DNA of 40,547 nt from a virus, in IMG/VR virus record IMGVR_UViG_3300021083_000286, positions 1-40,547 of that record. One strand, written 5' to 3'. Under the pieces are notes generated by a model that was not told where the DNA came from, ran no database searches, and saw nothing but the letters and a program-made list of their open reading frames with translations. Positions within the stretch are counted from its first letter, which is position 1. Every line of letters begins with the position of its first letter. The position numbers were made by a program, and so were the translations under genes. Below, in pieces: positions 5,743 to 21,910 of the stretch.

Positions 5743-5817
5743 TGGCGATTAACTCAGCGGTAGAGTAGGTGACTGTTAATCACTTTGTCTCAGGTTCGAT
5801 CCCTGAATCGCCAGCCA
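5743..5817 (+). tRNA. tRNA-Asn: tRNA-Asn (anticodon GTT), CCA encoded
   Basis: Hand-folded cloverleaf: acceptor TGGCGAT/ATCGCCA, D arm ACTC-AGCGGTA-GAGT, anticodon arm GGTGA-CTGTTAA-TCACT, 5-nt variable loop, T arm TCAGG-TTCGATC-CCTGA, discriminator G, CCA. Confidence 0.9.
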
Positions 5818-5832
5818 AATAGGAGAAATGAT

Positions 5833-6132
5833 ATGAGTGGTGGAAGTTATAACTATTTTTGCTTCGACATAGGCAATTTCGCTAATGCTATTGAAAACCA
5901 GCATACAGATCCAAGGCGTGCCAGCTTCGCAAAATTGTTATTGTTAATTAAAAAAGCTGCTCATGATATAGAATGGGTAGATAGTTTTGATTATGGTAAA
6001 GGTGATGAGCATCAAGCCATAGACGAAGTGTTCTCTTTTTTGACGCCAAATCCTGAGGTATTAATTAAGGCACATGCATATGATGAGTTTAAGACGATAG
6101 TGAAATCTTTTTTAGAAACCGAGGAGAAATGA
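5833..6132 (+). CDS. hypothetical protein (99 aa)
   Basis: Track ORF 5785..6132 overlaps the tRNA; AGGAG at 5821-5825 supports ATG 5833 (MSGGSYNYF...). Confidence 0.6.
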   Translation: MSGGSYNYFCFDIGNFANAIENQHTDPRRASFAKLLLLIKKAAHDIEWVDSFDYGKGDEHQAIDEVFSFLTPNPEVLIKAHAYDEFKTIVKSFLETEEK

Positions 6133-8796: not shown

Positions 8797-8910
8797 AATA
8801 TTCTCGCTCGTTGTGCTTATATACAGTATAGGCTACACTTAAACTAGGTTTTGATAGGCTATATTTGCTTAACTGACCACATCCAAATTAACCCTATAGG
8901 AAAAGACATC

Positions 8911-9765
8911 ATGACAGTATTCGTTCCTCAACCAACCCATTTTTCGGCTATTCCCGATTTCACATCCAATCCCTTCGTTACAGGCTTTAACTTGACAGTA
9001 ACCGGCAATACAACCTTCACGATTCAACCAGGTGGCGCTCGCGCATTAACCAGCGATTATGTTATTCAATATCCAACAGTAACTCCTAATCTTCCTGCTG
9101 TTATCACTGTCAATCTTGCTAACCTAGGTGTTAACGGTGTATTCCCATATCTGATCCCTTCAGCTGGTTTCACAGGTCCAATTGTACTGCCCGTATACAT
9201 TATTGCTGATAGCGCTGGTACCACTAATGGCAGCCTGAATGCACAAGCCAATCAGCCTGGTATTATCGTTGCCACTGGTAACAACTTCTTGCCGGCTGGC
9301 TATGATGCATTCCGTCGCATTGGCTGGATACTTGTTAATAATACTAACTCGGTTATCACACCTTGGACTCAAACTGGAAATGGTAATGAGCGTCAATATC
9401 TACTTCCAAATGCATTAACCGTATTGACAAGCGGAAATGCAACCGTGTTTACGCCTATCGATTTGTCATTAGGCGCAAACGGCATTGTTCCTCCTGGATT
9501 CAGTCAAGTTTATTTGAGTCTGAATTTAACTACAGCTCAAATCAATGCATCTTGTTTTGTGCAGCCTTTTGGTGCCTCATTCAGCGCGCCTTCAATCGGT
9601 TTAACATCACCTGTTGCAGGTATGTTGAGTGTTGATGTGACAGCTTCTGCCTCACCTAATGCATTAGGACATGCGGCAATTCAATATGCTGTTGGCGCGA
9701 GCAACTCAAGCTTGACAATTCAGCTCGATGGATTCGTCGATAGCTTAGAAGCTGCGTTGGTTTAG
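8911..9765 (+). CDS. Thr/Asn/Gly/Val-rich protein (284 aa), paralog A; putative virion-surface/receptor-binding protein of unknown family
   Basis: ATG 8911 gives 284 aa, the same length as the paralog 9830..10684. Shared blocks: NLTVTG-TTFTI-PG-AR, PVYI-A, IVAT-N-FLP, A-RRIG, PW-QTGN-N-R-Y-L, GFVD-L. Confidence 0.6.
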   Translation: MTVFVPQPTHFSAIPDFTSNPFVTGFNLTVTGNTTFTIQPGGARALTSDYVIQYPTVTPNLPAVITVNLANLGVNGVFPYLIPSAGFTGPIVLPVYIIADSAGTTNGSLNAQANQPGIIVATGNNFLPAGYDAFRRIGWILVNNTNSVITPWTQTGNGNERQYLLPNALTVLTSGNATVFTPIDLSLGANGIVPPGFSQVYLSLNLTTAQINASCFVQPFGASFSAPSIGLTSPVAGMLSVDVTASASPNALGHAAIQYAVGASNSSLTIQLDGFVDSLEAALV

Positions 9766-9829: not shown

Positions 9830-10684
9830 ATGGCGTTTTTCACACCTGAACCCATCTCATTCGCTACTACGCCATTTTTTGGGTCAGACGCATATGTCAG
9901 TGGATTAAACTTGACCGTTACAGGTCTAACCACTTTCACAATTGGTCCAGGAAGTGCTAGAGATTTGGTTACTGATTATCCAATAGTTTTCAGTAATGCT
10001 ATTGCAGGAAACCCTCCTGCCATTACAGTCGATATATCCACAACAGGTCTTAATGGATGCTTTCCGGTTCCTCTGGCTTCTTTAAATCTTGCATTTAATA
10101 CTGTCTTTCCCGTCTATATTGTTGCTAATACTGAAGGAACAACCAGTGGAAATCAAAATCCATCAACCAATCCAGCGATCATCGTAGCAACTGCAAATGA
10201 ATTTTTGCCTAAAAACATGAATGCTTATCGTCGTATTGGTTTCATTTATGTGAGCAGTGGTAGCGGCTTCATTATACCCTGGTCGCAGACCGGTAATAAT
10301 AATGATCGCACATATATGCTCGCTGAAGCTGTTGTTGTCTTGGCAGCTGGTGTTGCCGGTGTTTACACCGATGTAGACTTAACTGCATCTGCAGGCCCAG
10401 TTCCACCCAATACACGCTCTTTGGTGTATATCAATACATCAGTGACTTCGGCTGTCCCAGGCGACTCGGTTCAGTTTACAACAGGTAATTTGAGCCCTGC
10501 TACTTACACTACAATCTCTATTGTGCAAACAGGTGCTGCTCCACTGCCTACAATGACGACATTGCTGGCAACACCCGATGAAGTAACAGGTCATGCTGAA
10601 ATTAGATACCGCGTCACAGGTGGTGCAGCTGCAAGCTTACGCGTATCTGGGTTCGTTGATAACCTTGGTCCATCATTGTTTTAA
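9830..10684 (+). CDS. Thr/Asn/Gly/Val-rich protein (284 aa), paralog B of 8911..9765
   Basis: ORF track; AAGGAG RBS; conserved blocks shared with paralog A. Confidence 0.65.
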   Translation: MAFFTPEPISFATTPFFGSDAYVSGLNLTVTGLTTFTIGPGSARDLVTDYPIVFSNAIAGNPPAITVDISTTGLNGCFPVPLASLNLAFNTVFPVYIVANTEGTTSGNQNPSTNPAIIVATANEFLPKNMNAYRRIGFIYVSSGSGFIIPWSQTGNNNDRTYMLAEAVVVLAAGVAGVYTDVDLTASAGPVPPNTRSLVYINTSVTSAVPGDSVQFTTGNLSPATYTTISIVQTGAAPLPTMTTLLATPDEVTGHAEIRYRVTGGAAASLRVSGFVDNLGPSLF

Positions 10685-10697
10685 AATGCCTGAGAAA

Positions 10698-10722
10698 GGG
10701 GGCCTTTGCCCCCAATCTTTTT
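10698..10722. terminator. bidirectional intrinsic terminator between the convergent plus and minus transcription units
   Basis: GGGGGC-CTTT-GCCCCC, followed by AATCTTTTT on the plus strand and TTTCTC on the minus strand; sits between the stops at 10684 and 10730. Confidence 0.7.
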
Positions 10723-10729
10723 AAATGGC

Positions 10730-11296
10730 TTATAACAATTGAATACCAAAACCTGTTCCCAATGGAGTTATCCAATAGTTCGTTGATGAAGTATTTTTAC
10801 TTAAGGAATCGATAGCTATTCCCCATACGCCAGCCGTTAAAGATTGCGTCCATACAAAAGAAATAAAGCTTTGTCCTGAACCATTATATCCGTCAAGCGG
10901 AGTTGCTACTCCATTTATAGTAGCCGTCATCATTCCAATATTGGTACCGGTGCGCATACCCATTGTAAACTGATAAGTTCCATCAATTGGGGCATTAAAG
11001 TTTACTGTTCCGAAAGTCGTATTAGGGGTTCCATCAAATCCAGAACTATTTTGACTCAATGCGGGAGCCCAATAATAATCGCCACCACCACCACCTCCAA
11101 CAAAATAGTTCCAGCTCGTCCATGGAATGATAAAGGAAGTAGGATTGTAAGTTGCTATAGTTGAGAAGCTTAAATTCTTTGCTCCGTCAGTAACCATGGC
11201 CTGCCCTGCAAATCCGTCAACAGTAGGATAATTAATGCCTGCAGCAGTAAATCCATCATTTGCATTAATCATATTATTTACAATAATTTCTGACAT
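10730..11296 (-). CDS. tail fibre protein (188 aa)
   Basis: N-terminal INYPTVDGFAGQAMVTDGAKNLSFSTI matches an internal linker of 13320..15548; poly-Gly hinge; last gene of the fibre locus. Confidence 0.6.
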   Translation of the reverse strand: MSEIIVNNMINANDGFTAAGINYPTVDGFAGQAMVTDGAKNLSFSTIATYNPTSFIIPWTSWNYFVGGGGGGDYYWAPALSQNSSGFDGTPNTTFGTVNFNAPIDGTYQFTMGMRTGTNIGMMTATINGVATPLDGYNGSGQSFISFVWTQSLTAGVWGIAIDSLSKNTSSTNYWITPLGTGFGIQLL

Positions 11297-11327
11297 AATA
11301 ATTTCCTATTAATTAATTTGCTAATAT

Positions 11328-12668
11328 TTAAACTACTTTTTCCCAACATCCACTAATAATAACTTCACCCGATAAATAATCTATTGTTCCTCCGCTATAA
11401 ACCGCAAATAGATTTACGCCGGGTTGCGTTATTGTGTCTAAAGCTACAGATGATGGGAAAGGTACAGATGCGCTTCCCCATCTAGAATTTAAGGATGTTA
11501 TTAGGCTTGCGCTTGGAATAGTTGAATAAATAGTAGTTCCATCGGTAATATTAAGATCTCTATCCCCGCCAAGTAAATTTAAAGAATTATAGTTTAAAAA
11601 TAACTCTCTAACTCGATATTGGCCCCCAAAAAATGTACTAACCAAAGGGACTGATGCCCCACCTGATAACTGAGTAAACGTCACAGTTGTGTCAAAGTAG
11701 ATTAAATTTGACATTGGATCTACTTGTGTCAATTTGCATGGCAATAAAGTAACATTGGCAAAAGCAACATTGGGCAAAGCATGAGATGTCCCTACAGAGG
11801 TAGGCTGATTAGAAATTGATGTAGTTACGTTAGCAAGATTTGCGTTAGGTAAAATCAACATATAGCCAGTATTTGACGATGCAGGATAAGCTTGAACTTG
11901 ACCAAGCGCACCATTAGTTCCTGCAATTAAATTTCCCGCCAAAGCCTGCACATATCCTGTATTAGAAACAACATTACCAGAATTGGAAGTAACATCACCT
12001 TGGGCATAAAGAAAACCACTACTTGCAGAAATATTACCAGAAGTAGAAGTAATATCACTCAACGCAGTCCATGAACCTGATGTACCGGTTATATTAATAC
12101 CAACTACGCCAGCTGCATCTGTTCCGCTTCTTATTTGAGTATTATATAAAACATTGCCACCACCTGCTAAAAGAATATCCCCCTCAAGAGCTATAGATGA
12201 TGTGATTAAACATGCCCCAGCAGGGCCAACATGATTAATTACTGTTCCTGCAGATTGAAGAATATCGATATATCCAAATAATTCACCACCATTATTTGTT
12301 ATAGCAGTTCCAGTTCCAGAATTAGTAATGCCTGCCATCTGAAAAAATATCTTACAATTAAGCCCAATCGTTACTGTATCTCCAACTCCAGAAAAGTTAA
12401 TCTGTGCAGCAGGTCCAAAAAAGAATAAGTTCTCAGTGCTAGGAGCGAAATTTAATTGTTCATCATAAGTAGCTCCATCCATTATATTAATAATTACCGG
12501 AGCAGATGGAGAAGGAGACCCAGCTAAGGTTAGGGCCGCATTCAAAGTTGCTAATGGTGCTCCGAAACTACCTGAATTTAGATCGTTTCCTGTCATCTGA
12601 GAAACGTATATTTCGAATCCATTGAACTTTCCATTATTAATCATGTTATTCATAATAGGATTAGTCAT
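11328..12668 (-). CDS. tailspike-like protein with parallel beta-helix (pectin-lyase-fold) cap motif; putative polysaccharide depolymerase
   Basis: YVSQMTGNDLNSGSFGAPLATLNAAL...GATYDE cap motif. The C-terminal roughly 95 aa (GGDRDLNITDGT...YSGGTIDY) is paralogous to the C-terminus of 16767..18110. Confidence 0.6.
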   Translation of the reverse strand: MTNPIMNNMINNGKFNGFEIYVSQMTGNDLNSGSFGAPLATLNAALTLAGSPSPSAPVIINIMDGATYDEQLNFAPSTENLFFFGPAAQINFSGVGDTVTIGLNCKIFFQMAGITNSGTGTAITNNGGELFGYIDILQSAGTVINHVGPAGACLITSSIALEGDILLAGGGNVLYNTQIRSGTDAAGVVGINITGTSGSWTALSDITSTSGNISASSGFLYAQGDVTSNSGNVVSNTGYVQALAGNLIAGTNGALGQVQAYPASSNTGYMLILPNANLANVTTSISNQPTSVGTSHALPNVAFANVTLLPCKLTQVDPMSNLIYFDTTVTFTQLSGGASVPLVSTFFGGQYRVRELFLNYNSLNLLGGDRDLNITDGTTIYSTIPSASLITSLNSRWGSASVPFPSSVALDTITQPGVNLFAVYSGGTIDYLSGEVIISGCWEKVV

Positions 12669-12678
12669 TATAATTTCC

Positions 12679-12912
12679 TTATGCGACCGTTAGTCCTGTG
12701 GAGAATACATAATCTACTTGCCACGTAGTATTTGCAACAATACAAGTTACCAATACCAAATCTGTATTAGCAGCAGATGTTAATGTTCCGCCTGTAGATG
12801 TTGGTGTAGTTCCTAGATTAATGGTTTGACCACCAGCTGCTTGTAATATCCAGCCTGCAGCACCTTGACCATAAACCTTTACAACAGAACCAATGGCTGC
12901 GGTCGCAGGCAA
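12679..12912 (-). CDS. orphan tail-fibre C-terminal tip domain (77 codons), no in-frame ATG; TTG start, recoding or recombination cassette
   Basis: 63 of 77 positions identical (my count) to the last 77 aa of 13320..15548. The frame opens directly after a TAA. The RBS plus ATGATG at 12937 is one nucleotide out of frame. Confidence 0.5.
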   Translation of the reverse strand: MPATAAIGSVVKVYGQGAAGWILQAAGGQTINLGTTPTSTGGTLTSAANTDLVLVTCIVANTTWQVDYVFSTGLTVA

Positions 12913-12944
12913 TTAACATATTATTCGTAGTCATCATAATCTCC

Positions 12945-13310
12945 TTAGTAGTAAATAGCCCAAGTGTTCACACCTTGGTTAACAAGCCAAAAATTGAAAT
13001 TACTCAGATTTGTTGGCGTTCCAGAAACTGTCACATCTGTATTAGATGCAATTGTAATCATTGCACCTGTGGTATTGCTGACAAATACACTTACACCTTC
13101 ATTCAACCCAATTTTTGGGAACTGAATAGAATAATTTGTACCCGTATCTGCTGTCCAAATAGATGGACCTACTGCTGTATTAGAAAATACCCTGGCAGGA
13201 ATTAAAATGGCATCTAAAGAAACAGTATCAGACACAATCGCTTGCGGTGTCACAGATTCAAATGGAAGCAATGAAGCTTCCGGAACATTTAAAATATTGT
13301 TAATAGACAT
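12945..13310 (-). CDS. small tail-fibre-associated protein (121 aa)
   Basis: ORF track; the C-terminal half follows the same pattern as the tip modules (F-L-VN-GVNTWAIYY); lies inside the fibre locus. Confidence 0.5.
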   Translation of the reverse strand: MSINNILNVPEASLLPFESVTPQAIVSDTVSLDAILIPARVFSNTAVGPSIWTADTGTNYSIQFPKIGLNEGVSVFVSNTTGAMITIASNTDVTVSGTPTNLSNFNFWLVNQGVNTWAIYY

Positions 13311-13319
13311 TTTTTCCCC

Positions 13320-15548
13320 TTAAGCGACTGTTAAGCCTGTTGAGTACACGAAATTAACTTGCCATAAAGTATTAGCAACTAAACATGTCACTTCTACCAA
13401 ATCGGTATTAGCAGCAGAAGTGAGTGTTCCGCCAGTAGATGTGCTTGCAGTACCCAGGTTGATCGTTTGACCGCCTGCCGCCTGCAATATCCAACCAGCA
13501 GCACCTTGTCCATAAACTCTTACAGTGTCACCTACCGCAGACACAGCGGGTAATGTCACAGTTGTTTGAGCAGCATTTGCACAAATATATGCATTGGCTG
13601 CAACAGCAAGCTGTGAAGTTCCGGCAATTGTATTGAATGATAATCCACCACCACCTCCAACTGTCGCGAAACTCAATAGACCGGAACCATTAGTGACCAT
13701 TGCTTGTCCGTTTGTGCCATCAGCTGTTGGATAAGTTAATCCATCAGCAATTAAAGCATTGACGGTGAATGTAGGAGTAGTTGAACCTTCAGGAGTCAGT
13801 CCATTTATATTGCCTGTATTAGTACCACTTCTATTTTGTGCGAAGTAGTTAATAGTTCCAGATCCAGTGGTCAAATTACCCATCAATGCATCAGTAGTAA
13901 TGTTGATGTTGCCAGTGTTTGTAACGATGGGACCAATGATTGCGTTGATATTTAGAATCATCCCTGAAGTGCCAGTACAATGAACGGAATTGAATGTAGA
14001 TGTTCTTACAATTTCACCAACATTTACAAGATTTCCCAATCCAGAAGATGTCGTGCAAGTGATAACATCTCCAGTGGTGCTTGTTAGGACTGCCTGCGGT
14101 GCAACGATACTCACGCCTGTGCTGGCCAATGTGATCGATTCGTTATAGGTTTCTCCATCCAAACCAATAATAACTGTTGGATTTACAGGAGTACCCACTT
14201 GAGAAATTGCGAAGCCGAATGTCGCCCAAGGAGCTTCCAATGTTCCATTTCCTGCAGTATCGTCCCCGGAAATCTGAGACACATATACTGCAAAAGATGA
14301 ACCCGCGAATGCTACATCCCCAGTGATTGTCCATGTATTAACAAATCCATTTCCTGCATCACCTTTTATTGCTAATACAAGCTCACAAATACCAGGAAGA
14401 GTTGCTACTGCATTATTACTGATTACGTCTCCTGCAGCTTGTAAAAAGAATCTTCCGACCTGCCCATCTGATGGTTTGTTAAGCTGATTAAAATACATTC
14501 TGAATCCTTCCTCAATTTGAGGAAAGCTTACAACACTAGGAAGATGTATAGTTCCACCATTGAAACTCATCAGAAGCATTTTGTTTCCCGTGGTTGGGTT
14601 AACAAAATAATCCCCAGCGCTATCAGGAAGCAATTCGTATGATTGTCCGCTGACGGGTCCTGTCAGTAACAATATCCCACCGGAATTGAAGTCTAATCCA
14701 TTTTGTCCAACATATCCTCGTGTTCCGTTATATTCACCAGTATTCAATGTGCTTGCATTTATTACAGATTGTATATAAACATTTGCAATTGCATCTTGCG
14801 TGCCTGCGGATATTGCAGCAGGTCCAGCAGCATTGAGCAAATATAAATCTAGATTTAGAACAGAGTTTGCGCCAAGAGTGAAAGGAATGTTTGCTCCATC
14901 GCCCACTATTGATGCTGCAGGAGCATTGATAGTTACAATAGTATTTGCAGCTACATGGAAAGATCCACTAAGGTTATATACCCCTTCGTCAGGAATATTG
15001 ATAACATTTCTATTTCCAGTAAAAGAAGCAATTGCCTGACCAATAGTCAAAAATGGAGTATCAATTGAATTTCCGGCATTGGAATCATTTCCATTTTGGG
15101 CTACCCACCATGTTTGCTGATATTGAAATCCACCACCGCCCCCGCCATTGGCATTGATAGTTACCGTAGTTCCTGTGCTCGATAAAGTTACGTTAGTACC
15201 CGCTAGTAAAGTTTTTAATTGATACGTAGTTCCTACCAAACCCGCGCCAATTCCTGTTCCACTGCCTACGTTTATGATATTTTCAATAGTGCCGCCTCCG
15301 CTGCCACCTGCAGGGACCAAAGTTAATGTATTGATTCCAGTAACTTGAAGTGTGTAATATTCACTGCCGTCAGATGCATTTGCAAATACGAAATCAGTTG
15401 GCTGTACCTGAACATCTGTCATAGTTTCTAGTTGATTCAAGAAACCTGGGTTTTGAATATCAGAATTGGTTAGGTTTGTTTGAAGCAAAACCATACCAGG
15501 TGATACGCCAACAATACCTGAAAGAACTCGAGTTAAAGTGCTAGACAT
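13320..15548 (-). CDS. large tailspike/tail fibre (742 aa) with two beta-helix cap motifs and a C-terminal tip domain
   Basis: Cap motifs WWVAQNGNDSNAGNSIDTPFLTIGQAIASF and VYVSQISGDDTAGNGTLEAPWATFGFAISQV; poly-Gly hinges; the N-terminal domain (PG..L...PGFLN) is shared with 15573..16757. Confidence 0.65.
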   Translation of the reverse strand: MSSTLTRVLSGIVGVSPGMVLLQTNLTNSDIQNPGFLNQLETMTDVQVQPTDFVFANASDGSEYYTLQVTGINTLTLVPAGGSGGGTIENIINVGSGTGIGAGLVGTTYQLKTLLAGTNVTLSSTGTTVTINANGGGGGGFQYQQTWWVAQNGNDSNAGNSIDTPFLTIGQAIASFTGNRNVINIPDEGVYNLSGSFHVAANTIVTINAPAASIVGDGANIPFTLGANSVLNLDLYLLNAAGPAAISAGTQDAIANVYIQSVINASTLNTGEYNGTRGYVGQNGLDFNSGGILLLTGPVSGQSYELLPDSAGDYFVNPTTGNKMLLMSFNGGTIHLPSVVSFPQIEEGFRMYFNQLNKPSDGQVGRFFLQAAGDVISNNAVATLPGICELVLAIKGDAGNGFVNTWTITGDVAFAGSSFAVYVSQISGDDTAGNGTLEAPWATFGFAISQVGTPVNPTVIIGLDGETYNESITLASTGVSIVAPQAVLTSTTGDVITCTTSSGLGNLVNVGEIVRTSTFNSVHCTGTSGMILNINAIIGPIVTNTGNINITTDALMGNLTTGSGTINYFAQNRSGTNTGNINGLTPEGSTTPTFTVNALIADGLTYPTADGTNGQAMVTNGSGLLSFATVGGGGGLSFNTIAGTSQLAVAANAYICANAAQTTVTLPAVSAVGDTVRVYGQGAAGWILQAAGGQTINLGTASTSTGGTLTSAANTDLVEVTCLVANTLWQVNFVYSTGLTVA

Positions 15549-15572
15549 GATAATTTCTCCTAATAAATTAAA

Positions 15573-16757
15573 TTACGGGCTAACAGTAGCCATATCGCCT
15601 GATACAATCCAAATATTATCTGTATATTTCCACGCATAAATCACAGCGCCCGCGCCTGCAGTTCCTACCGGAAGAGTTTGGTTCGCTATGATTGTAACGC
15701 CTGCGCCTGCTACCAAGCTTACAGCCCCAATACCTAACTGAACAAATGTGATCTGAGTTCCAATAGGAATAGCAACGGATGAAGTCTGAGGCAATGTATA
15801 ATCACCTATGACCGCTGCGTTATAAACGACTCGTGTATTACTATCGACAATGGCTAAAGTACGACCCACTGTTTCAGTGCTTGGAGGCGTTTGATACATC
15901 AAATGATTCAAATATGTAGTATCACCATATACTTGATTCAATGGAGTTCCATTTAATGTCTGAATGCTACCCATGATCGTAGAACCAGTGTCAAATGTGA
16001 AAGTACAATCTATAGCATTCACAATAGTCGGGGAAAATTGACCCGTTGCAGTTATATGTATGTTAGAGGTGATCTGAGCAACTTCACGAAGCACCAATCC
16101 ACCTTCATCATAAATATCTCCCTGAATAACCCCTGCGCTAAGGAACATATTTGAAAGTGCTCCTGAAATGCTCACTGATTTTCCAGATCCATAATTAAAC
16201 AAAGCAGCCACATTAATGACGGCCAAAGTATCGTCACCACTATCATTTATAGTGAGCAAATCACCGGAATTACAATTGATAGAGGCATTAGGCCCCCATA
16301 TTTGTAAGCTATAGGGTAATACCACATTTTCATAGTAGGACCCATCATCAAGAATAATGACGACCCCTTGTTGGGAAGGACTCAACATCAACGCAGAAAT
16401 AGCAGATCCAATTTTTAACTTAGGAAGCCCAATACTTGTTCCTGGATTCAAATCTGAACCGCCTTTAGCAACAAATTGAGTTTGTGTGAATATGAAACTA
16501 TTGCTATTCGGAGAATAAACATTAAGTGAATATACGCCATCAGTAATAGAGACCACAAGCATCGCAAATTCTGTGTTTGCATTAAAAATTGTAAATATCA
16601 CATCATTATCTTGTAAGTCATAACCTGCAAGCGCAACTGTGTTCAAAAATCCTGGAGTAGTGATGGTAGAATAACTTTCATCACTATTCAAAAACCAAAG
16701 GCCCGGACGAACACCAGTTTCTGAAAATGGTAACGGGGTTAGTATATTTGTTGACAT
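15573..16757 (-). CDS. tailspike-like protein with beta-helix cap motif (394 aa)
   Basis: FVAKGGSDLNPGTSIGLPKLKIGSAISAL...DGSYYEN; N-terminal domain paralogous to 13320..15548. Confidence 0.6.
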   Translation of the reverse strand: MSTNILTPLPFSETGVRPGLWFLNSDESYSTITTPGFLNTVALAGYDLQDNDVIFTIFNANTEFAMLVVSITDGVYSLNVYSPNSNSFIFTQTQFVAKGGSDLNPGTSIGLPKLKIGSAISALMLSPSQQGVVIILDDGSYYENVVLPYSLQIWGPNASINCNSGDLLTINDSGDDTLAVINVAALFNYGSGKSVSISGALSNMFLSAGVIQGDIYDEGGLVLREVAQITSNIHITATGQFSPTIVNAIDCTFTFDTGSTIMGSIQTLNGTPLNQVYGDTTYLNHLMYQTPPSTETVGRTLAIVDSNTRVVYNAAVIGDYTLPQTSSVAIPIGTQITFVQLGIGAVSLVAGAGVTIIANQTLPVGTAGAGAVIYAWKYTDNIWIVSGDMATVSP

Positions 16758-16766
16758 CTCAATCTC

Positions 16767-18110
16767 CTAATTGGTTACTCTTTCGTAAACTAGCGTTATT
16801 GCTACCGATCCAGCCGTATAATCTATTGTTCCACCACTATATGTTCCATATATATTTGTGCCTGGAACAGATGCTTGATTTAATGGAATCGAAATAGGAT
16901 ACGGCACAGCCCCACTTCCCCATCTGGCATTAGCTAAAGACTGCAATATAGCCGCAGGGATGGTCGTCCAAACAGAAGTTCCATCTGTTATATCTAAATT
17001 CCTATCACCGCCCCCGGAGAAGTTAGTTCCAAATCCATTTAATTGAATCTCATTAATTTGATAGGAAGCAGTTGTTGAACCGAATGTGACTAGATTAACC
17101 TGGCCAGCGCCCGTTAAGTCGGCCTGATCTACAGTTGTATTTTTGGATACCGTAATAAATCCACCAGAACTACTAATCAAATCATTAAAGGTTTGTCCGC
17201 CATAAACTGTATTGTTGGTATTTCCGGGACCGGTTACCACTTGGATATCTCCAACTATTGTAGAGCCCGGATCAAAAGTGAATGTGCATCCAAGAGCATT
17301 TATCGTTTCTATCGAAAATACTCCTGTTGAGAATATATGGATATTAGATGTAATCGTAGCTACATCATTAAAAAGCAAACTGCCATGGCAATCGATGTTT
17401 CCAAGAAAAATTGGAGAATCTAAGAATAATACTGTTCCTGGATCAGGAATATTTACTGCAAGACCTGGACCACCTTGATTGATATCTCCAATCATTAATC
17501 TAACAACTGTAGTTCCACCACCTGAAACGGTTATCAAATCACCTGACCCTGTGCCATCTAGCTCAGCAGTGGGCGCCCATATTTGCATGCCTTGGGTAAT
17601 TGTTAGATTTTCTGAATATTGGCCTGAATCAGTTACTATAACCAATCCACCTGTAGGAACAATATCGATAGCAGCCTGTATGGTAAGTTTTGGCAAAAGA
17701 AGGGATGTTCCAGAATTTAAATCATTTCCACTTTTAGATACGAATATTGTATTGGTAGAAACTGAATTAACCGGCGTCCATTCTCCATTGCTATATGTTT
17801 CAACAGTATTAGTATCTGAATTAGCTCGAATCATACCAAGAACCGGAGAAGGGTCTCTCTGTGATGTATTCCCAGTAGGAACCGTTATTTGTCCCACACC
17901 TGGAAAAATGACAGCATTGAATAACGAAATGACCGGATTTCCCAATATTCCAGAACCATTGGAAACTACTATCTGGTCAGTAGTTCCTAAAATAGTTCTT
18001 GAACCTAGTTCTATTCCAAGGTTAATAATAGCTTGAGCAGCAGTCATAGCACCCGTACCACCATTCGCTATATCTATCGGGTTCTCAAAGTCATTACTTC
18101 TGTTAGTCAT
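16767..18110 (-). CDS. tailspike-like protein with beta-helix cap motif (447 aa)
   Basis: N-terminal IANGGTGAMTAAQAIINLGI fibre motif; FVSKSGNDLNSGTSLLLPKLTIQAAIDIV...SGQYSEN; C-terminal GGDRNLDITDGT...YSGGTIDY module shared with 11328..12668. Confidence 0.65.
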   Translation of the reverse strand: MTNRSNDFENPIDIANGGTGAMTAAQAIINLGIELGSRTILGTTDQIVVSNGSGILGNPVISLFNAVIFPGVGQITVPTGNTSQRDPSPVLGMIRANSDTNTVETYSNGEWTPVNSVSTNTIFVSKSGNDLNSGTSLLLPKLTIQAAIDIVPTGGLVIVTDSGQYSENLTITQGMQIWAPTAELDGTGSGDLITVSGGGTTVVRLMIGDINQGGPGLAVNIPDPGTVLFLDSPIFLGNIDCHGSLLFNDVATITSNIHIFSTGVFSIETINALGCTFTFDPGSTIVGDIQVVTGPGNTNNTVYGGQTFNDLISSSGGFITVSKNTTVDQADLTGAGQVNLVTFGSTTASYQINEIQLNGFGTNFSGGGDRNLDITDGTSVWTTIPAAILQSLANARWGSGAVPYPISIPLNQASVPGTNIYGTYSGGTIDYTAGSVAITLVYERVTN

Positions 18111-18119
18111 TAATTATCC

Positions 18120-19046
18120 TTAAACTATAGTGAAGGTACCAACAAAGGAGGTTACTTCCCATTCAGTATTTGCTGTAATACAAGTTAATGTAATAGCATC
18201 ATGTGCATCTTGACTGGCTATTGAACCACCCACCCCAATAGTCGAAGTCGCCGTTCCGAAACGTATAACTTGTCCAGCTGCCTGCGCAATAGTATATAAA
18301 CCTGCATCTTTTCCTGTAATTTGTATATATGCTCCAACAGATGATGCTGCTGGTAATGTATAAATTATAGGTGTTGATCCTGCATTACTAGTATAGCCTG
18401 TGTTTACAGCCATAGTGACAGATGCAGTGGTCTGATTTACCCAGGCTGGACTGAAATTTGCAGATTGTTTCTGGAATACGATTGGATCTGTACCAACGAT
18501 AGAAACACTTGGCGAAGTCAGGAACCACCAGCTTAATGCATTTAAAGTCCCAAATAACACAGCTATAAAGTTACCTTGTTGGATTTCACCGTTAGTCGAA
18601 CCATCAAAATCCGGAACCCGTGTCATGACCCAATTGGATGCTAAACTTCCAGCGTTGGTTACCGAATAAACCCCATTTTGAGTTGGGTTAGATTGGAACG
18701 CAACCAGGACCCTTTGGCCAACAGCCAATGTTATTCCATCAATCACCAAGGCAGAAAATGCACCAGCATTAGTTAGAGTTGCTCCGATACCTGGAAATAC
18801 ACCATTTGGACCTGGCAGATAAGAGGCGTTTAGATTTCCAACAGTTCCTACATAGGCGGTTTTTACATCATCTCCAGTAAAGTTATTAACCAAGAAACTT
18901 TGTAGCTGTCCAATAGTATATTTCTTGGTGCTTCCTGATGGACTCTGAGTCAAATCTGTAACATCGACCGCTGCGTAAACATCTGTCACTAAGGTGCCAG
19001 CACCAGGAACAAGTTGCGTGATTGGAGTTGAGTTATATAAGCTCAT
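18120..19046 (-). CDS. tail fibre protein (308 aa)
   Basis: N-terminal PITQLVPGAG...TKKYTIGQLQSF pattern, common in fibre N-termini; C-terminal tip module related to 12679..12912. Confidence 0.6.
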   Translation of the reverse strand: MSLYNSTPITQLVPGAGTLVTDVYAAVDVTDLTQSPSGSTKKYTIGQLQSFLVNNFTGDDVKTAYVGTVGNLNASYLPGPNGVFPGIGATLTNAGAFSALVIDGITLAVGQRVLVAFQSNPTQNGVYSVTNAGSLASNWVMTRVPDFDGSTNGEIQQGNFIAVLFGTLNALSWWFLTSPSVSIVGTDPIVFQKQSANFSPAWVNQTTASVTMAVNTGYTSNAGSTPIIYTLPAASSVGAYIQITGKDAGLYTIAQAAGQVIRFGTATSTIGVGGSIASQDAHDAITLTCITANTEWEVTSFVGTFTIV

Positions 19047-19054
19047 TTTTCACC

Positions 19055-19438
19055 TTAAAATTGTGGTGGAATTCTGTAAGAAATACCGACACCAACGCCC
19101 GCTTGTGTCGTTATAAGCTGCAGCGTCTGTCCAGGTAGTACCAATCTTGCACTCGGATTCAATTCTGCAGTTGTTGCAGCCAACGTAGTAGTTGGGATCG
19201 TCAATGTCGGCGTGGCAGATGGTTGAATAAATACGCCCGGATTACCTGGTGCTGTAGATATGAAATATTTAAAATATGCCACTAATCGCGCATAGTTTCC
19301 TCTAGGAACAGTTACAACAAATGGCGTGTTTGGAGTCAAAAAGAAATATTGATTAGTATCAGTGAACGGGAAAGCTGTTTCAGAACCGGTTGTTGGATAT
19401 CCATTTATATCCCTTACAATTGTTAATGGTGAGGCCAT
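19055..19438 (-). CDS. hypothetical virion/tail-associated protein (127 aa)
   Basis: ORF track; position between fibre genes; no recognisable motif. Confidence 0.45.
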   Translation of the reverse strand: MASPLTIVRDINGYPTTGSETAFPFTDTNQYFFLTPNTPFVVTVPRGNYARLVAYFKYFISTAPGNPGVFIQPSATPTLTIPTTTLAATTAELNPSARLVLPGQTLQLITTQAGVGVGISYRIPPQF

Positions 19439-19447
19439 GGTTATCTC

Positions 19448-21910
19448 CTAGTATCTAATAAATGGGTAAATCGTTGCGTTAACAGGTCTAGTTTCAGTTC
19501 CGCCAGACGTGCCTGTATTCTGCGTTTGAAACAAATAGGGAGTTCCACCCTCCATCGCATTATTAGGCGCAATTTGTGCCAAACTTGTAAAAGTATGGTT
19601 ATGGGCCAAAAATTGTTGATATTCAAAAGTACCAGGCGCATTTCCAAAATTATTAGCAATGTAAGACCATCTATTGACGGCATCTAAATCCCATGTTGCA
19701 TTTGGATCTCCCGCTCTAAAGAACATTCCTCTGAAATCAGGAGCCGAAAATTGATAAGTATTAATAGCCAATTGTGTTTTATTTCTAATCTCTTGAGGAG
19801 TATCTGTAGATAAAATACTAACCCTTATTCCAGTCGTTATTCCCACAGGCATTGGATCTGCCCCAGGAACTGTCAGATCTGAAATATAATACCAAACATA
19901 GAAACTTCTCAATGATGCGGGATTTGAATAGAATGTAAAGTAACTCGAAACTCCTGCTGTAATAGGAGGTGTTCCAGTTATCGTTATATCACTAGCTGCA
20001 AATGTACTCAAAGCCTCTCTTACACAATCTGCAACATCAGCGGCTGAATACGTTGAACTGATATTAACTTGAAAATTTGGACCAACTGCCGGTAGCGTAT
20101 TAGCTCCATCCACATTGAACCACATATAATATTGTGTCGCATTGATACCGATGAAAAAATATCTTCCGCTACCCGCTTTAACTAAGGCTGCCCCAGTGAC
20201 TGTAGTTATAGTGAATGAATTGGTTTGAAATGCTCTCAATGCTGTGGCTGTATCATTTCTTACAATCGTGAAGCCCGTCGCGTTTACTCCAGCTCCATCC
20301 TGCAAAGTATTGGTAAGAGAATTTCCATTCAAACAGACACCTTCTAACGTAGACGTATTATTTATTATATTTGCCTGCAGACCTCTTGAGGCTGTTCCAG
20401 TAAAAACCCCTGTATATGCATATTTGGGAGCAAAAGTGAAACCTGTGGCGTTCGGAGCGAGACCATCAGCGGGCTGCGTAGAACCACCACCAGCAATGTT
20501 ATATACAATTCTCATTGTCGTATTAGTTGCACCCGATAAAGGATATAAACAGCTCACATAATTTGAACCCGTTCCATATAAAGGAAGATTATTAGCTAAT
20601 CCATCGTTCTGGAGATATGCTGCCAAACGCGAAAATGGAACACCATTTGAAGCATGTCCATTTGTGAGATAACTTGATCCATCGCAAGGCATCATGTTAT
20701 GTTGCGGAGCGGGCAACGAAGTAGGGCTAAGGATAGGCATTATTGACATGCCAACTGTCCCAACTTGCGAAGCATCCCAAGTCATTCCTGCTCTAGTCAA
20801 AATAGGAGGAAGGAATAAATCCATTCCATTCGGATCAACTGTTTCAGCCCATCCCATTACTCCACGAGTCATCATATCTTCGTTCGTCTGAACTGGGAAC
20901 GCAGTTACAGTTGTGATGCTTCCTTCTGGTTGAGCTACCAACAAGAAATCTGAAAAATCTATATCGTAAACCATGCTTGTTGGAAACGATATCTCTAATG
21001 CAACATAGTCATTATTATTGACAGTATCAACATTTAAACCATCATTATTTCCAAATGTTAAATTGATATTATATAAAGGAGCATCTACGTTATTCTCAAT
21101 TGTAATAGTCGATAATGCCAATGGCGGAACAACGCTACCATTAGTACCACAATATTTTATTAGATTTATAGTTACAGGAACGCTTCCTAGATTTGAAGTC
21201 GCATAGAAAGCAAATGTATATATACTATTTGGGGTAGAGAATTTATTAACATCAGCCCATTTTACTCTTAATGTTTTCTGTGTATCCAATCCATTTACAA
21301 CAGTGCATGCAACATTTAAAAGATATCTAGGACTCTGAGGAGCTTCTATATTATTATTTTGCACCAAAAATGTAGATGTATTTACTGAAGGAGTACCAGA
21401 GCCTGCAGGAGTGAATTCGAATGTGAATCCTCCCTGAGCCAGAACATTGCTACCAGCAACAATTGCATTGTTAGCCAGATTTGTATGCTCTAAAAGCTGG
21501 CCGTTAGGTATGAAATTATATGGCGAAAATGAACCACCGACTGAACCACCACTTCCATTAGGATTGGGCCATGCCGATCGGGTGAATTGTGGGACGCCCA
21601 ACGAATTCTGAACAACAATATAGTAAAGCTCTTCATTTCCACTAGCATCAAATGGAAAATAATAGATAATCACATCATTGCCATCATTATCTTGCACAGT
21701 GCCAACAGCACTAAGGATAATTGGATTTGGCAAAGGCACATATGTATAGTTCGCCCCATTTCCTTCAAGTTCATATACAGTCTTTGGAGTAGTCCTATTA
21801 ACGTCAGAATAGAAGAATATCTTTCCACCAGCCAAAGGAAGTCCTGAGTCTTTATCTACGAAATATTCCTGTAGATTAGGGGCTGTGACGTATTGTGGGT
21901 TTAGGGACAT
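19448..21910 (-). CDS. primary tail fibre (820 aa) with tail-collar-like C-terminal domain
   Basis: First fibre gene after the internal proteins. The C-terminus FRGMFFRAGD...HNHTF...GGTETRPVNATIYPFIRY resembles the phage tail-collar domain motif (GG-ETRP-N). Confidence 0.65.
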   Translation of the reverse strand: MSLNPQYVTAPNLQEYFVDKDSGLPLAGGKIFFYSDVNRTTPKTVYELEGNGANYTYVPLPNPIILSAVGTVQDNDGNDVIIYYFPFDASGNEELYYIVVQNSLGVPQFTRSAWPNPNGSGGSVGGSFSPYNFIPNGQLLEHTNLANNAIVAGSNVLAQGGFTFEFTPAGSGTPSVNTSTFLVQNNNIEAPQSPRYLLNVACTVVNGLDTQKTLRVKWADVNKFSTPNSIYTFAFYATSNLGSVPVTINLIKYCGTNGSVVPPLALSTITIENNVDAPLYNINLTFGNNDGLNVDTVNNNDYVALEISFPTSMVYDIDFSDFLLVAQPEGSITTVTAFPVQTNEDMMTRGVMGWAETVDPNGMDLFLPPILTRAGMTWDASQVGTVGMSIMPILSPTSLPAPQHNMMPCDGSSYLTNGHASNGVPFSRLAAYLQNDGLANNLPLYGTGSNYVSCLYPLSGATNTTMRIVYNIAGGGSTQPADGLAPNATGFTFAPKYAYTGVFTGTASRGLQANIINNTSTLEGVCLNGNSLTNTLQDGAGVNATGFTIVRNDTATALRAFQTNSFTITTVTGAALVKAGSGRYFFIGINATQYYMWFNVDGANTLPAVGPNFQVNISSTYSAADVADCVREALSTFAASDITITGTPPITAGVSSYFTFYSNPASLRSFYVWYYISDLTVPGADPMPVGITTGIRVSILSTDTPQEIRNKTQLAINTYQFSAPDFRGMFFRAGDPNATWDLDAVNRWSYIANNFGNAPGTFEYQQFLAHNHTFTSLAQIAPNNAMEGGTPYLFQTQNTGTSGGTETRPVNATIYPFIRY

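What the first reader, a model, noticed from the sequence alone, without database searches (positions are those of the whole stretch)
11328..18110. Five beta-helix cap motifs across four consecutive tailspike genes: a multi-depolymerase host-recognition arsenal in a 40-kb podovirus
Seen: the motif (V/Y)V(S/A)..G.D.N.G....P..T(I/L)..A(I/L) ... G.Y.E occurs five times. It appears in 11328..12668 (YVSQMTGNDLNSGSFGAPLATLNAAL), twice in 13320..15548 (WWVAQNGNDSNAGNSIDTPFLTIGQAIASF and VYVSQISGDDTAGNGTLEAPWATFGFAISQV), in 15573..16757 (FVAKGGSDLNPGTSIGLPKLKIGSAISAL) and in 16767..18110 (FVSKSGNDLNSGTSLLLPKLTIQAAIDIV). Established: this is the N-terminal cap pattern of right-handed parallel beta-helix (pectin-lyase fold) domains, typical of phage capsule/LPS depolymerase tailspikes. 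Inference: together with the other fibre genes, about 11 kb (roughly a quarter of the genome, 10730..21910) serves host recognition. This suggests a branched multi-spike adsorption apparatus able to address several surface glycans. One protein carrying two such units in tandem is unusual.
Basis: partly seen in the sequence, partly recalled or inferred. Interest (0 to 1): 0.65.

Follow-up and report, generated by a model that had tools for sequence, protein, structure and literature searches.

The report
Modular mini beta-helix tailspike gene array
A complete 40-kb P22-like phage genome from a metagenome carries four adjacent tailspike-like genes built from five copies of a compact beta-helix module that no Pfam or NCBIfam model detects; related phages shuffle, fuse and split this module, the set is normal for this phage sub-clade, and nothing yet shows the modules are enzymes.

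Summary
The motif occurs exactly five times, in four consecutive minus-strand genes, and marks five true paralogous modules of about 170-200 aa (leave-one-out E 3e-10 to 2e-28; 0 hits in shuffles).

The beta-helix reading is supported. AlphaFold2 models are confident for three units and for the first half of the fourth. Foldseek matches tailspikes, pectinesterases and pectate lyases. The best solved match is the long tail fibre gp015 of Agrobacterium phage 7-7-1, which has the same layout (anchor, beta-helix, jelly roll).

The depolymerase claim is not supported. There is no Pfam or NCBIfam hit, each helix has only about 6-8 rungs, and family-wide conservation stops after the cap and first rungs.

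"Two units in tandem is unusual" is wrong for this family: 63% of 157 relatives carry 2-6 cap-containing units. The 742-aa protein is an in-frame fusion of two complete helix-plus-tip modules.

Related phage genomes carry 0-6 units, and 4-6 is typical in this sub-clade. Units and tips move between genes (70% identity across different contexts), and a 77-codon tip-domain scar lies at 12679..12912.

Verdict: a real, modular receptor-binding array. It is a new variant of a known kind and of moderate interest.

The parts
19448..21910 (-). 820-aa protein that heads the fibre block. It is conserved in the whole clade and is probably the primary or proximal tail fibre or adaptor.
   Evidence: It has orthologues of 34-53% identity in L001, L002, L005, L007 and 67 IMG/VR contigs, always directly after the ejection-protein genes. 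No Pfam, PHROG or phage-record hit was found.
19055..19438 (-). 127-aa conserved small protein of the fibre block.
   Evidence: Orthologues of 33-41% identity occur in L001, L002 and L005 at the same position.
18120..19046 (-). 308-aa fibre protein without a beta-helix unit. It has a conserved N-terminus (1-55), an inserted middle domain (56-200) and a C-terminal type-B tip domain (207-305).
   Evidence: The tip is 36% identical to the C-terminus of the 742-aa protein. Short 162-164-aa versions in L002 and L005 lack the middle domain. PHROG hits fall on residues 90-250.
16767..18110 (-). 447-aa tailspike-like protein: N-terminal anchor (1-115), beta-helix unit (116-314, window 17169..17765), C-terminal jelly-roll tip (324-447, window 16770..17141).
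   Evidence: In the AF2 model the unit has pLDDT 73-90. The best Foldseek PDB hit is 7-7-1 gp015 (E 6e-8), followed by the AM24 and K2-2 tailspikes. BFVD returns 37 hits, including pectinesterase, tail spike and DUF1565 proteins. The C-terminal tip is 45% identical to that of g11328.
15573..16757 (-). 394-aa tailspike-like protein: N-terminal anchor (about 1-88, shared with the 742-aa protein), beta-helix unit (90-290, window 15888..16490), type-C beta-sandwich tip (296-394, window 15576..15872).
   Evidence: The unit is 42% identical to the g16767 unit (E 1e-36) and the N-terminus matches residues 14-70 of the 742-aa protein. The tip hits the C-termini of PHROG 8780, 18179 and 6953 tail and structural proteins.
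13320..15548 (-). 742-aa double module: N anchor plus Gly-rich linker (1-142); unit 1 (143-~320, window ~14589..15122; profile match 143-340); internal type-C-like tip (323-411); unit 2 (416-601, window 13746..14303); connector motif (597-630); type-B tip (644-742, window 13323..13619).
   Evidence: The unit profile gives two domains. AF2 gives unit 2 pLDDT 85-96, residues 143-237 of unit 1 pLDDT 70-89, residues 238-417 below 50, and the C-terminal tip 64-92. The internal tip is supported by an iterated profile, by reciprocal phmmer and by HHalign (92%, E 6e-7, against controls of 0.2-0.5%). The 429-aa protein of L002 equals this protein without residues ~84-420.
12945..13310 (-). 121-aa stand-alone tip domain (type D).
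   Evidence: All 7 homologues found are the C-terminal ~105 residues of long unit-bearing proteins, for example L005 931-aa residues 827-931.
12679..12912 (-). 77-codon fragment of a type-B tip domain, probably a recombination scar or decayed mini-gene. An out-of-frame 39-codon ORF (12818..12937) lies upstream, starting MMTTNNMLI after GGAG.
   Evidence: The fragment is 81% aa-identical to residues 666-742 of the 742-aa protein. A 207-nt direct repeat, 12677-12883 and 13318-13524, is 78% identical. The sequence was read directly.
11328..12668 (-). 446-aa tailspike-like protein: short N-terminal peptide (MTNPIMNNMINNG), beta-helix unit (18-214, window 12027..12617), middle region (215-325), jelly-roll tip (326-446, window 11331..11693).
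   Evidence: The unit is 31% identical to unit 2 of the 742-aa protein. Residues 15-247 are 70% identical to the third unit of the 3-unit 921-aa protein of L005.
10730..11296 (-). 188-aa small fibre protein: N-terminal NNMIN peptide, connector motif (14-47), type-E tip domain (48-188).
   Evidence: The connector is 53% identical to residues 597-630 of the 742-aa protein. The C-domain has homologues at the C-termini of unit proteins (P0132, P0041, P0104) and as small ORFs in L002 and L004.
10698..10713 (+). GC-rich hairpin (GGGGGC-CTTT-GCCCCC) plus a T run at the convergent junction that closes the fibre block.
   Evidence: Found by the terminator scan. This is a pattern match only.

Best explanation
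The window is a complete, circularly assembled genome of about 40.5 kb from an uncultured podovirus with a P22-like portal and lambdoid-type early genes. After the ejection-protein genes comes a two-part tail-fibre region. The first part is a conserved core (820-, 127- and 308-aa proteins). The second is a variable array of receptor-binding proteins assembled from interchangeable modules. These modules are: short N-terminal docking peptides or domains (three kinds); a compact right-handed parallel beta-helix of about 170-200 aa and 6-8 rungs with a canonical cap (five copies); a Gly/Gln-rich connector motif; and small beta-sandwich or jelly-roll tip domains (five kinds, types A-E). Each helix-bearing protein has the architecture of the tailspike-like fibres Milano gp124 and 7-7-1 gp015: anchor, beta-helix, distal beta-sandwich. 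The 742-aa protein is two such helix-plus-tip modules fused in frame. The inferred mechanism is as follows. The proteins form (probably trimeric) spikes on the tail, each presenting a different helix surface and tip. This gives the virion several alternative or cooperative receptor specificities, and recombination at module boundaries changes the set. What is shown: the paralogy, the beta-helix fold prediction, module mobility and copy-number variation among relatives. What is inferred: virion location, trimerisation, binding function and the absence of catalysis.
For: Genome type: P22_portal at 1.9e-76; large terminase, major head protein, head-closure (P22 gp10-like) and DNA-ejection PHROG hits; the gp10-like orthologues in relatives carry PF11134; RusA and a Cro-like HTH; a 55-nt terminal overlap. 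Fold: AF2 gives pLDDT 73-96 for the units. Foldseek matches 9rkv at E 6e-8 plus tailspikes and lyases, 37 BFVD hits, and pectin methylesterases at probability 0.99. The unit profile hits the N-terminal caps of pectinesterase, GH136, 7-7-1 gp015 (188-219) and Milano gp124 (189-220). Architecture: gp015 and gp124 are described as anchor, beta-helix and jelly roll; the g16767 C-domain matches jelly-roll proteins. Modularity: all-against-all BLASTP gives a mosaic pattern. P0015 combines a g16767-type helix (56-58% identity) with a different N-terminus and tip. The g11328 unit is 70% identical to the third unit of a 3-unit protein in L005. The g12945 and g10730 tip domains are fused to long proteins in relatives. 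The internal tip in the 742-aa protein scores HHalign 92%, and a tip-domain scar is present. Copy number: 0, 2, 4(+1 truncated), 5 and 6 units in five genomes; in IMG/VR, 26 loci have none and 8 have 1, 1, 1, 4, 4, 5, 6 and 6.
Against: There is no direct evidence that any of these proteins is in the virion or binds anything. The AF2 models are monomers built on shallow alignments (15-17 sequences), with mean pLDDT 58-62. The N-terminal anchors and residues 238-417 of the 742-aa protein are not confidently modelled. Foldseek TM-scores are low (0.1-0.3) because the matches cover single domains within multi-domain models. The case for no catalysis rests only on negative evidence. D49, Y53, E55 and D79 in the first rungs are conserved family-wide and could be functional. 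The small ORFs and the scar may mean part of the array is decaying rather than functional.
Confidence: 0.7

Rival explanations
1. This is the first reader's reading: each of the five beta-helix units is an active glycan depolymerase (glycosidase, lyase or esterase). The phage would then carry five enzymatic specificities, two of them on one polypeptide.
For: The pectin-lyase-like fold is the usual scaffold of phage depolymerases. BFVD matches include proteins named endosialidase, pectate lyase superfamily and pectinesterase. PDB matches include the AM24 and K2-2 capsule-degrading tailspikes and a PL6 alginate lyase. Acidic residues D49, E55 and D79 are conserved.
Against: There is no hit to any Pfam or NCBIfam model at E<=1. 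79 full-length relatives gave no beta-helix enzyme family, and 49 isolated units gave only sub-threshold Pectinesterase and DUF1565 hits. PDB sequence similarity is confined to the cap and first rungs. The helices have only about 6-8 rungs and no long loops or insertions in the models. The helix body conserves only glycines. One of the closest solved homologues, Milano gp124, was judged unlikely to be enzymatic by its authors. The best enzyme matches have Foldseek E of only 1e-3 to 3e-2.
Confidence: 0.2
2. The array is partly a graveyard or reservoir of cassettes. Only one or two of the helix proteins are assembled on virions. The rest, together with the small ORFs g12945 and g10730 and the 77-codon fragment, are leftovers of past module swaps or donors for future recombination.
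For: A clear scar lies at 12679..12912, with a 207-nt direct repeat. g12945 is a displaced C-terminal domain. L004 has a truncated 193-aa unit protein. Copy number ranges from 0 to 6 among relatives.
Against: All four helix genes are long, intact ORFs, tightly packed with 9-31-nt spacers on one strand. Orthologues of three of them (g16767, g15573 and the 742-aa protein) are intact at 42-65% identity in other genomes. g11328 has no full-length orthologue among the genomes examined, only module-level matches. Small tip ORFs recur as intact genes in L002 and L004.
Confidence: 0.1
3. The motif recurrence is a compositional artefact of Gly/Asn/Thr-rich fibre proteins, and the domains are not beta-helices.
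For: The fibre proteins have a strongly biased composition: 8.5% Asn, 11-12% Gly and only about 8% charged residues. HMMER's bias filter rejected one leave-one-out hit. The cap alone also resembles the non-helix N-terminal extension of AsnRS.
Against: There are 0 motif matches in composition-preserving shuffles. All leave-one-out E-values are 3e-10 or better with filters off. 1775 relatives were found in an exhaustive search. AF2 units are confident and have consistent beta-helix matches.
Confidence: 0.02

Closest known systems
Tailspike-like fibres of Agrobacterium phages Milano (gp124, PDB 8fqc) and 7-7-1 (gp015, PDB 9rkv)
   Same: They share the three-part layout of N-terminal tail-binding module, middle right-handed beta-helix and C-terminal jelly-roll. 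9rkv is the best Foldseek PDB match of the g16767 model (E 6e-8, probability 1.0). The unit profile hits the start of their beta-helical domains. Milano gp124 lacks strictly conserved residues and its authors judged it unlikely to be enzymatic.
   Different: Those phages are myoviruses with baseplates and one such protein each. Their helices are longer (about 245-275 aa against about 170-200). Sequence similarity is marginal (E 0.009-0.015, cap only). Here there are five helices in four genes, one protein has two helix-plus-tip modules, and the virus has a P22-like portal.
Multi-tailspike systems: CBA120 TSP1-4, G7C gp63.1/gp66, K1-5/SP6, Klebsiella KP32 (two RBPs) and PhiK64-1 (own knowledge)
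   Same: Several adjacent genes for beta-helix receptor-binding proteins with exchangeable N-terminal anchors. The 742-aa model's best PDB hit is the N-terminal part of CBA120 TSP4, residues 1-335 (E 3e-3, probability 1.0).
   Different: Those tailspikes are long (500-1000+ aa per helix domain), match known enzyme families, and have demonstrated depolymerase activity. Each polypeptide carries one helix. Branching here is not shown, and the region of the model that matched TSP4 is not known.
P22 gp9 and Sf6 tailspikes (classical P22-like podovirus RBPs; own knowledge, Sf6 cited)
   Same: The context is a podovirus with a P22-like portal and a gp10-like tail protein, and the receptor-binding protein is beta-helix based.
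   Different: P22-like phages carry a single tailspike gene with a 13-rung endorhamnosidase helix. There is no sequence similarity to it here, and no phage-record hit for the 742-aa or 820-aa proteins.
Cap region of CE8 pectin methylesterases, DUF1565 (PF07602) and GH136 beta-helix enzymes
   Same: They share an N-terminal pattern '..TIq.Ai.a......I.i..G.Y.E.l.i'. Pectinesterase 5c1e aligns over profile positions 26-142 (E 1.7e-3). The structural matches have probability 0.99.
   Different: All scores are below Pfam thresholds (best 0.0012 for DUF1565 and 0.018 for Pectinesterase among 49 units). I did not see the CE8 catalytic motifs when reading the unit sequences and the 5c1e alignment, which extends only to profile position 142; this was not tested formally.

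Membership tests
Right-handed parallel beta-helix (pectin-lyase-like fold) | N-terminal cap: a short strand, a Gly/Asp-rich loop and an amphipathic helix that cover the first rung. | tested here: met
   All five units have the strand-loop-helix pattern; the models show helices at 144-150 (g16767) and at 169-174 and 444-451 (742-aa protein). The profile aligns to the N-terminal starts of pectinesterase, GH136, 7-7-1 gp015 and Milano gp124.
Right-handed parallel beta-helix (pectin-lyase-like fold) | A stack of repeated three-strand rungs, recognised by structure comparison. | tested here: met
   The AF2 units contain about 15-20 short strands at pLDDT 73-96. Foldseek matches tailspikes, PL6 lyase, pectin methylesterases and pectate lyase, plus BFVD proteins named 'Parallel beta-helix repeat', 'Pectate lyase superfamily' and 'DUF1565'. 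The second half of unit 1 of the 742-aa protein is not confidently modelled.
Right-handed parallel beta-helix (pectin-lyase-like fold) | Membership of a curated sequence family (Pfam Beta_helix, Pectate_lyase_3, DUF1565, Pectinesterase, NosD). | tested here: not met
   The window proteins give no Pfam or NCBIfam hit at E<=1. Among 49 diverse units there are only sub-threshold hits, and 79 full-length relatives gave none.
Phage tailspike depolymerase | Homology to a characterised glycan-degrading family, or conserved catalytic acidic residues in the helix groove. | tested here: not met
   No sequence similarity to solved enzymes beyond the cap. Family-wide conservation ends at about position 82 of the unit, after which only glycines are conserved. 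This is negative evidence only, since unit-specific sites cannot be excluded.
Phage tailspike depolymerase | Encoded in the tail or late structural module. | tested here: met
   The genes follow the portal, capsid, gp10-like and ejection-protein genes on the same strand. The arrangement is syntenic in L001, L002 and L005.
Phage tailspike depolymerase | Trimeric virion protein that produces halos or cleaves host glycan. | not testable with these tools
   The host is unknown. No multimer prediction or experiment was possible.
Milano gp124 / 7-7-1 gp015-type tailspike-like fibre | Domain order: N-terminal tail-binding module, beta-helix, C-terminal jelly-roll. | tested here: met
   The g16767 model has residues 1-115, the helix at 121-293 and a beta-sandwich at 320-447. 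The whole chain matches 9rkv chains M, N and O (E 6e-8 to 1e-5), and the C-domain matches jelly-roll proteins.
Milano gp124 / 7-7-1 gp015-type tailspike-like fibre | Significant sequence homology. | tested here: inconclusive
   Only 32 residues of the cap align, at E 0.009 (9rkv) and 0.015 (8fqc).
Branched multi-RBP complex (CBA120 / G7C type) | Several RBP genes with distinct N-terminal adaptor modules, including T4 gp10-like docking domains. | tested here: inconclusive
   There are three kinds of N-termini, each shared by two proteins. Foldseek matches the 742-aa model to CBA120 TSP4 residues 1-335 (probability 1.0) and, weakly, to T4 gp10, but the aligned region of the model is not reported.
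Branched multi-RBP complex (CBA120 / G7C type) | Physical attachment of one RBP to another on the virion. | not testable with these tools
   This needs cryo-EM or pull-downs.

The most novel reading that the evidence does not exclude
The units define an uncurated domain family: a compact beta-helix of about 180 aa with a conserved cap and first rungs. It has no Pfam, NCBIfam or annotated-phage counterpart. Nature uses it as a concatenable helix-plus-tip cassette, with 1-4 cassettes per receptor-binding protein in a new clade of ~40-kb podoviruses with a P22-like portal (0-6 units per genome), and six or more cap-containing matches in giant proteins of up to 5.5 kaa on other contigs, some of them bacterial. 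If each cassette is an independent binding or cleaving head, a single polypeptide would carry two or three receptor specificities in series, a 'poly-tailspike'. I found no description of this for phage RBPs in the paper library.
Probability: 0.3. Interest if true: 0.65.

Novelty: new variant of a known kind. Interest (0 to 1): 0.45.

Why it matters
Receptor-binding proteins set phage host range, and modular exchange of their parts is the basis of host-range engineering. This locus and its relatives give a natural series in which the same small beta-helix and tip modules occur singly, fused in twos and threes, split into separate ORFs, or absent. The module boundaries and junction motifs can be read directly from that series. 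It also shows that a family with 1775 detectable members is invisible to current curated domain libraries, so multi-RBP arsenals in metagenomic phages are likely under-counted. Finally, it warns against equating 'beta-helix cap motif' with 'depolymerase'.

Tried and rejected
(1) Nucleotide similarity of 11000-22000 to 50,697 phage records gave no match. tblastn of the 820-aa and 742-aa proteins also gave none. g16767 gave only E 2e-3 hits to hypothetical proteins of Synechococcus myophages.

(2) Pfam, NCBIfam and PHROG scans of all block proteins gave nothing informative for the units. PHROG 4577 'tail protein' matched the cap only.

(3) Word-indexed homologue searches found very few relatives (3, 2 and 11 hits). 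AF2 alignments therefore stayed shallow, and the anchors and residues 238-417 of the 742-aa protein remain unmodelled.

(4) A plain sequence search of PDB hit only the AsnRS N-terminal extension. I first read this as evidence against a helix cap. I rejected that reading after the fold searches and the profile search.

(5) An iterated type-B tip profile did not reach the internal domain. The link was found only through the type-C profile and was then checked by reciprocal phmmer and HHalign. Internal versus type B remains unsupported (HHalign 5%).

(6) g12945 and the g10730 C-domain could not be related to tip types A, B or C (HHalign below 1%).

(7) Promoter and terminator scans of the block were at background level, apart from the hairpin at 10698.

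(8) Host identification gave only one relative in bacterial genome bins: a 40.3-kb contig in a Coxiellaceae MAG. This is binning evidence only, and that contig has no unit.

(9) A literature search for tandem beta-helix or dual depolymerase domains in one RBP found no relevant precedent. It returned KP32, which has two separate RBPs, and Bdellovibrio triple-beta-helix fibres.

Full report
OBSERVATION. They lie consecutively on the minus strand, and the five quoted peptides are present. A regular expression for the motif matches five times in the six-frame translation (four strict, one relaxed), only in these genes. It never matches in 200 shuffled windows or 2000 composition-preserving shuffles of the fibre proteins.

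The motif is the first ~30 residues of a ~170-200-aa paralogous module. Units match each other in BLASTP at E 1e-5 to 1e-37. A profile built from any four units detects the fifth at E 3e-10 to 2e-28. One leave-one-out hit was first lost to HMMER's bias filter. No sixth copy exists in the window.

GENOME CONTEXT. The window starts and ends with the same 55 nt, so it is a circular assembly of about 40.49 kb. It is identical to a 40,547-bp JGI metagenome contig.

It encodes a P22-like portal (1.9e-76), a large terminase, a major head protein, a head-closure (P22 gp10-like) protein and DNA-ejection proteins, all on the minus strand upstream of the block. The plus-strand early region holds RusA, a Cro-like regulator, an AAA_24 ATPase, DUF669, tRNA-Asn and a NAMPT gene. 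No phage record is similar at the DNA level, and the portal is only ~23% identical to those of Vibrio and other podoviruses. The fibre block therefore sits exactly where a podovirus with a P22-like portal keeps its tail accessory genes.

FOLD. None of the ten block proteins hits any Pfam or NCBIfam model at E<=1, so the beta-helix claim needed a structural test.

With a 15-sequence alignment, AlphaFold2 models the g16767 unit (residues 121-293) at pLDDT 73-90, as one helix followed by about 20 short strands. With 17 sequences, unit 2 of the 742-aa protein (420-585) reaches pLDDT 85-96 and the first 95 residues of unit 1 reach 70-89.

Foldseek gave the following matches:
- The g16767 model best matches the long tail fibre of Agrobacterium phage 7-7-1 (9rkv, E 6e-8, probability 1.0). 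Next come the AM24 and K2-2 tailspikes, a PL6 alginate lyase and the phi297 tailspike.
- Against viral models it gives 37 hits at E<=1e-3, including proteins named pectinesterase, endosialidase, DUF1565, pectate-lyase superfamily and tail spike.
- The 742-aa model matches pectin methylesterases (probability 0.99), 9rkv, pectate lyase A and GH136 enzymes.

A profile of 49 diverse units also hits, weakly but specifically, the N-terminal starts of solved beta-helix domains. These are pectinesterase 5c1e (E 1.7e-3, positions 19-129), 7-7-1 gp015 (188-219; its helical domain is 177-453), Milano gp124 (189-220) and GH136 (17-49).

TM-scores are low (0.1-0.3) because the matches cover single domains within multi-domain monomer models.

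ARCHITECTURE. [quoted passage not shown]

The block is a mosaic:
- g16767 and g11328 share a jelly-roll tip (type A, 45% identity).
- The 742-aa protein and g18120 share a type-B tip (36%).
- g15573 has a type-C tip that matches the C-termini of PHROG tail and structural proteins.
- The 742-aa protein and g15573 share an N-terminal domain.
- g11328 and g10730 share an N-terminal 'NNMIN' peptide.
- A connector motif (G-L-x-Y-P-T-x-D-G-x-x-G-Q...) follows unit 2 of the 742-aa protein and opens g10730.

THE TWO-UNIT PROTEIN. Between its two units, the 742-aa protein has a domain (323-411) that an iterated type-C tip profile detects. As a query, that domain finds equivalent internal domains of other multi-unit proteins. 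HHalign relates the internal domains to the g15573-type terminal tip at 92% probability (E 6e-7, 83 columns), against 0.2-0.5% for the jelly-roll control.

The protein is thus anchor, helix and tip (a g15573-like spike) fused in frame to helix, connector and tip. The 429-aa orthologue in L002 is the same protein without residues ~84-420.

IS TANDEM UNUSUAL? No, not in this family. An exhaustive HMMER search with the five-unit profile finds 1775 proteins at E<=1e-3. Among 157 of the best, 99 carry two to six cap-containing matches, with a median cap-to-cap spacing of 315 aa. Sister phages have 2-unit and 3-unit proteins, and L044 has a 4-unit protein. Distant multi-unit members include giant proteins of up to 5.5 kaa; one lies on an 870-kb contig and another belongs to a Coriobacteriales MAG. 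I found no paper describing tandem right-handed beta-helix modules in a phage RBP. The arrangement is therefore uncharacterised rather than rare.

COMPARATIVE GENOMICS. Four relatives share the structural module and the 820/127/308-aa core but differ downstream:
- L001+L004 (one 39.2-kb contig) has 4 full units plus a truncated one.
- L002 (42.5 kb) has 2.
- L005 (38.9 kb) has 6 in three genes.
- L007 (a 40.3-kb contig binned in a Coxiellaceae MAG) has none.

Among 34 IMG/VR loci with at least 6 kb downstream of the 820-aa gene, 26 have no unit and 8 have 1, 1, 1, 4, 4, 5, 6 and 6. Apart from one locus (L044, 32% identity, 4 units in one gene), the high counts occur only where the 820-aa protein is at least 42% identical. 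Five units is therefore ordinary for this sub-clade.

Modules move between contexts:
- g11328 residues 15-247 are 70% identical to the third unit of the L005 3-unit protein.
- P0015 joins a g16767-type helix (56-58% identity) to another N-terminus and tip.
- g12945 (121 aa) is homologous only to the C-terminal ends of long unit proteins (7 of 7 homologues), and the g10730 C-domain behaves in the same way.
- The only large 'intergenic' gap (12669-12944) holds a 77-codon fragment that is 81% identical to the last 77 residues of the 742-aa protein. It forms a 207-nt direct repeat around g12945, which is a footprint of tip replacement.

ENZYME OR NOT. The evidence for catalysis is the fold alone. 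Several points count against it:
- There is no match to any curated enzyme family.
- Each helix has only about 6-8 rungs and no long loops.
- Across 49 diverse units, conserved positions stop at about residue 82 (V12, G16, D18, P28, T31, A35, D49, Y53, E55, P68, A70, G78, D79, T82), and after that only glycines are conserved.
- The Milano authors used the same argument to call gp124 unlikely to be enzymatic.
- The block proteins have only ~8% charged residues, against 21% elsewhere in the genome.

I therefore rate binding or shaft modules as most likely (0.7) and the five-depolymerase reading at about 0.2. The conserved D49/Y53/E55/D79 cluster remains an open question.

BRANCHING. Three kinds of N-termini, each shared by two proteins, and a Foldseek match of the 742-aa model to the N-terminal part of CBA120 TSP4 (residues 1-335; probability 1.0, E 3e-3) are compatible with a branched complex. 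However, the aligned region is unknown and the anchors are poorly modelled. This remains inference.

VERDICT. The finding is real, and the fold assignment is right. The functional label (depolymerase arsenal) is unproven and probably overstated. The 'unusual tandem' remark is wrong for the family, although the tandem protein turned out to be more interesting than stated, being a fusion of two whole spike modules. The system is a new variant of a known kind, namely modular multi-RBP arrays, built from a compact beta-helix family that no curated library covers. Interest is moderate (0.45).

Noticed in passing
window 12679..12937 (-): The only large gap in the fibre block contains a 77-codon fragment that is 81% identical to the C-terminal tip of the 742-aa protein. 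Just upstream is an out-of-frame 39-codon ORF with a GGAG ribosome-binding site that starts MMTTNNMLI, like the N-termini of g11328 and g10730. A single +1 frame change would join the two, so this is either a decayed mini tip gene or an assembly indel.
   Followed up: partly
window 8851..9765 (+) and 9830..10684 (+): These are two 40%-identical paralogues with no Pfam or PHROG hit, convergent on the fibre block. Homologues sit in the same place in L002 and L004. In the distant relative L007 the single homologue lies directly between the major capsid gene and the next tail gene, which suggests a capsid decoration or head-fibre protein that was duplicated and relocated. BLAST alignments start at residue 21 of the first protein, so its true start is probably the ATG at 8911.
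   Followed up: partly
window 19448..21910 (-), residues ~405-430 and ~724-811: The conserved 820-aa protein has motifs 'MPCDG..Y' and 'PDFRGMFFRA...HNH...GG.ETRPVN'. From memory these resemble phage tail-collar type domains, split here by a ~300-aa insertion. Many residues of these motifs are invariant in four orthologues, but no Pfam model hits at E<=1.
   Followed up: no
cap of each unit, e.g. 742-aa protein residues 420-471 (window ~14136..14291): The cap (strand, Gly/Asp loop, helix) resembles the N-terminal extension domain of eukaryotic asparaginyl-tRNA synthetase (PDB 4zya). Foldseek aligns 45 columns at rmsd 1.5-1.7 A and 33% identity; the profile E-value is 7.6e-3. This could be an isolated 'cap' fold or convergence.
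   Followed up: partly
window 5743..5817 (+): The phage encodes a tRNA-Asn (GTT). The fibre block is Asn-rich (8.5% against 5.9% in other genes) and mostly uses AAT. The listed TTG-start ORF 5785..6132 overlaps the tRNA, so its start is probably mis-called.
   Followed up: partly
window 1..55 and 40493..40547: The first and last 55 nt are identical, the signature of a circular assembly. The genome is complete at about 40,492 bp.
   Followed up: yes
window 10730..21910 (-): Fibre-block proteins have very few charged residues (Lys+Arg+Asp+Glu about 8.5%, against 21% in the other 22 genes) and are rich in Gly, Thr and Asn.
   Followed up: partly
window 17212..17478, 17479..18036, 20244..20561, 21587..21847 (+): Plus-strand ORFs of 86-185 aa lie antisense inside fibre genes. 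They have no support and are most likely spurious products of the biased composition.
   Followed up: no
L007 (CAZTDR010000018.1, 40,319 bp): The only relative found in the bacterial genome collection is a phage-sized contig binned into an uncultured Coxiellaceae MAG (42% GC; the window is ~40%). This is a weak hint that the clade infects Legionellales-like bacteria. That contig has the 820-aa gene but no beta-helix unit.
   Followed up: partly
window 7201..8553 (+): A nicotinamide/nicotinate phosphoribosyltransferase (NAMPT-type) gene sits at the end of the early region. It is an auxiliary NAD-salvage gene.
   Followed up: no
P0095 (5541 aa), P0147 (4786 aa), P0103 (2108 aa, on an 870-kb contig): Distant relatives of the unit occur 6 or more times per protein in giant proteins on large, partly bacterial contigs (one from a Coriobacteriales MAG; one named 'pectin methylesterase-like acyl-CoA thioesterase' by its source). 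The cassette is therefore not confined to phages.
   Followed up: partly
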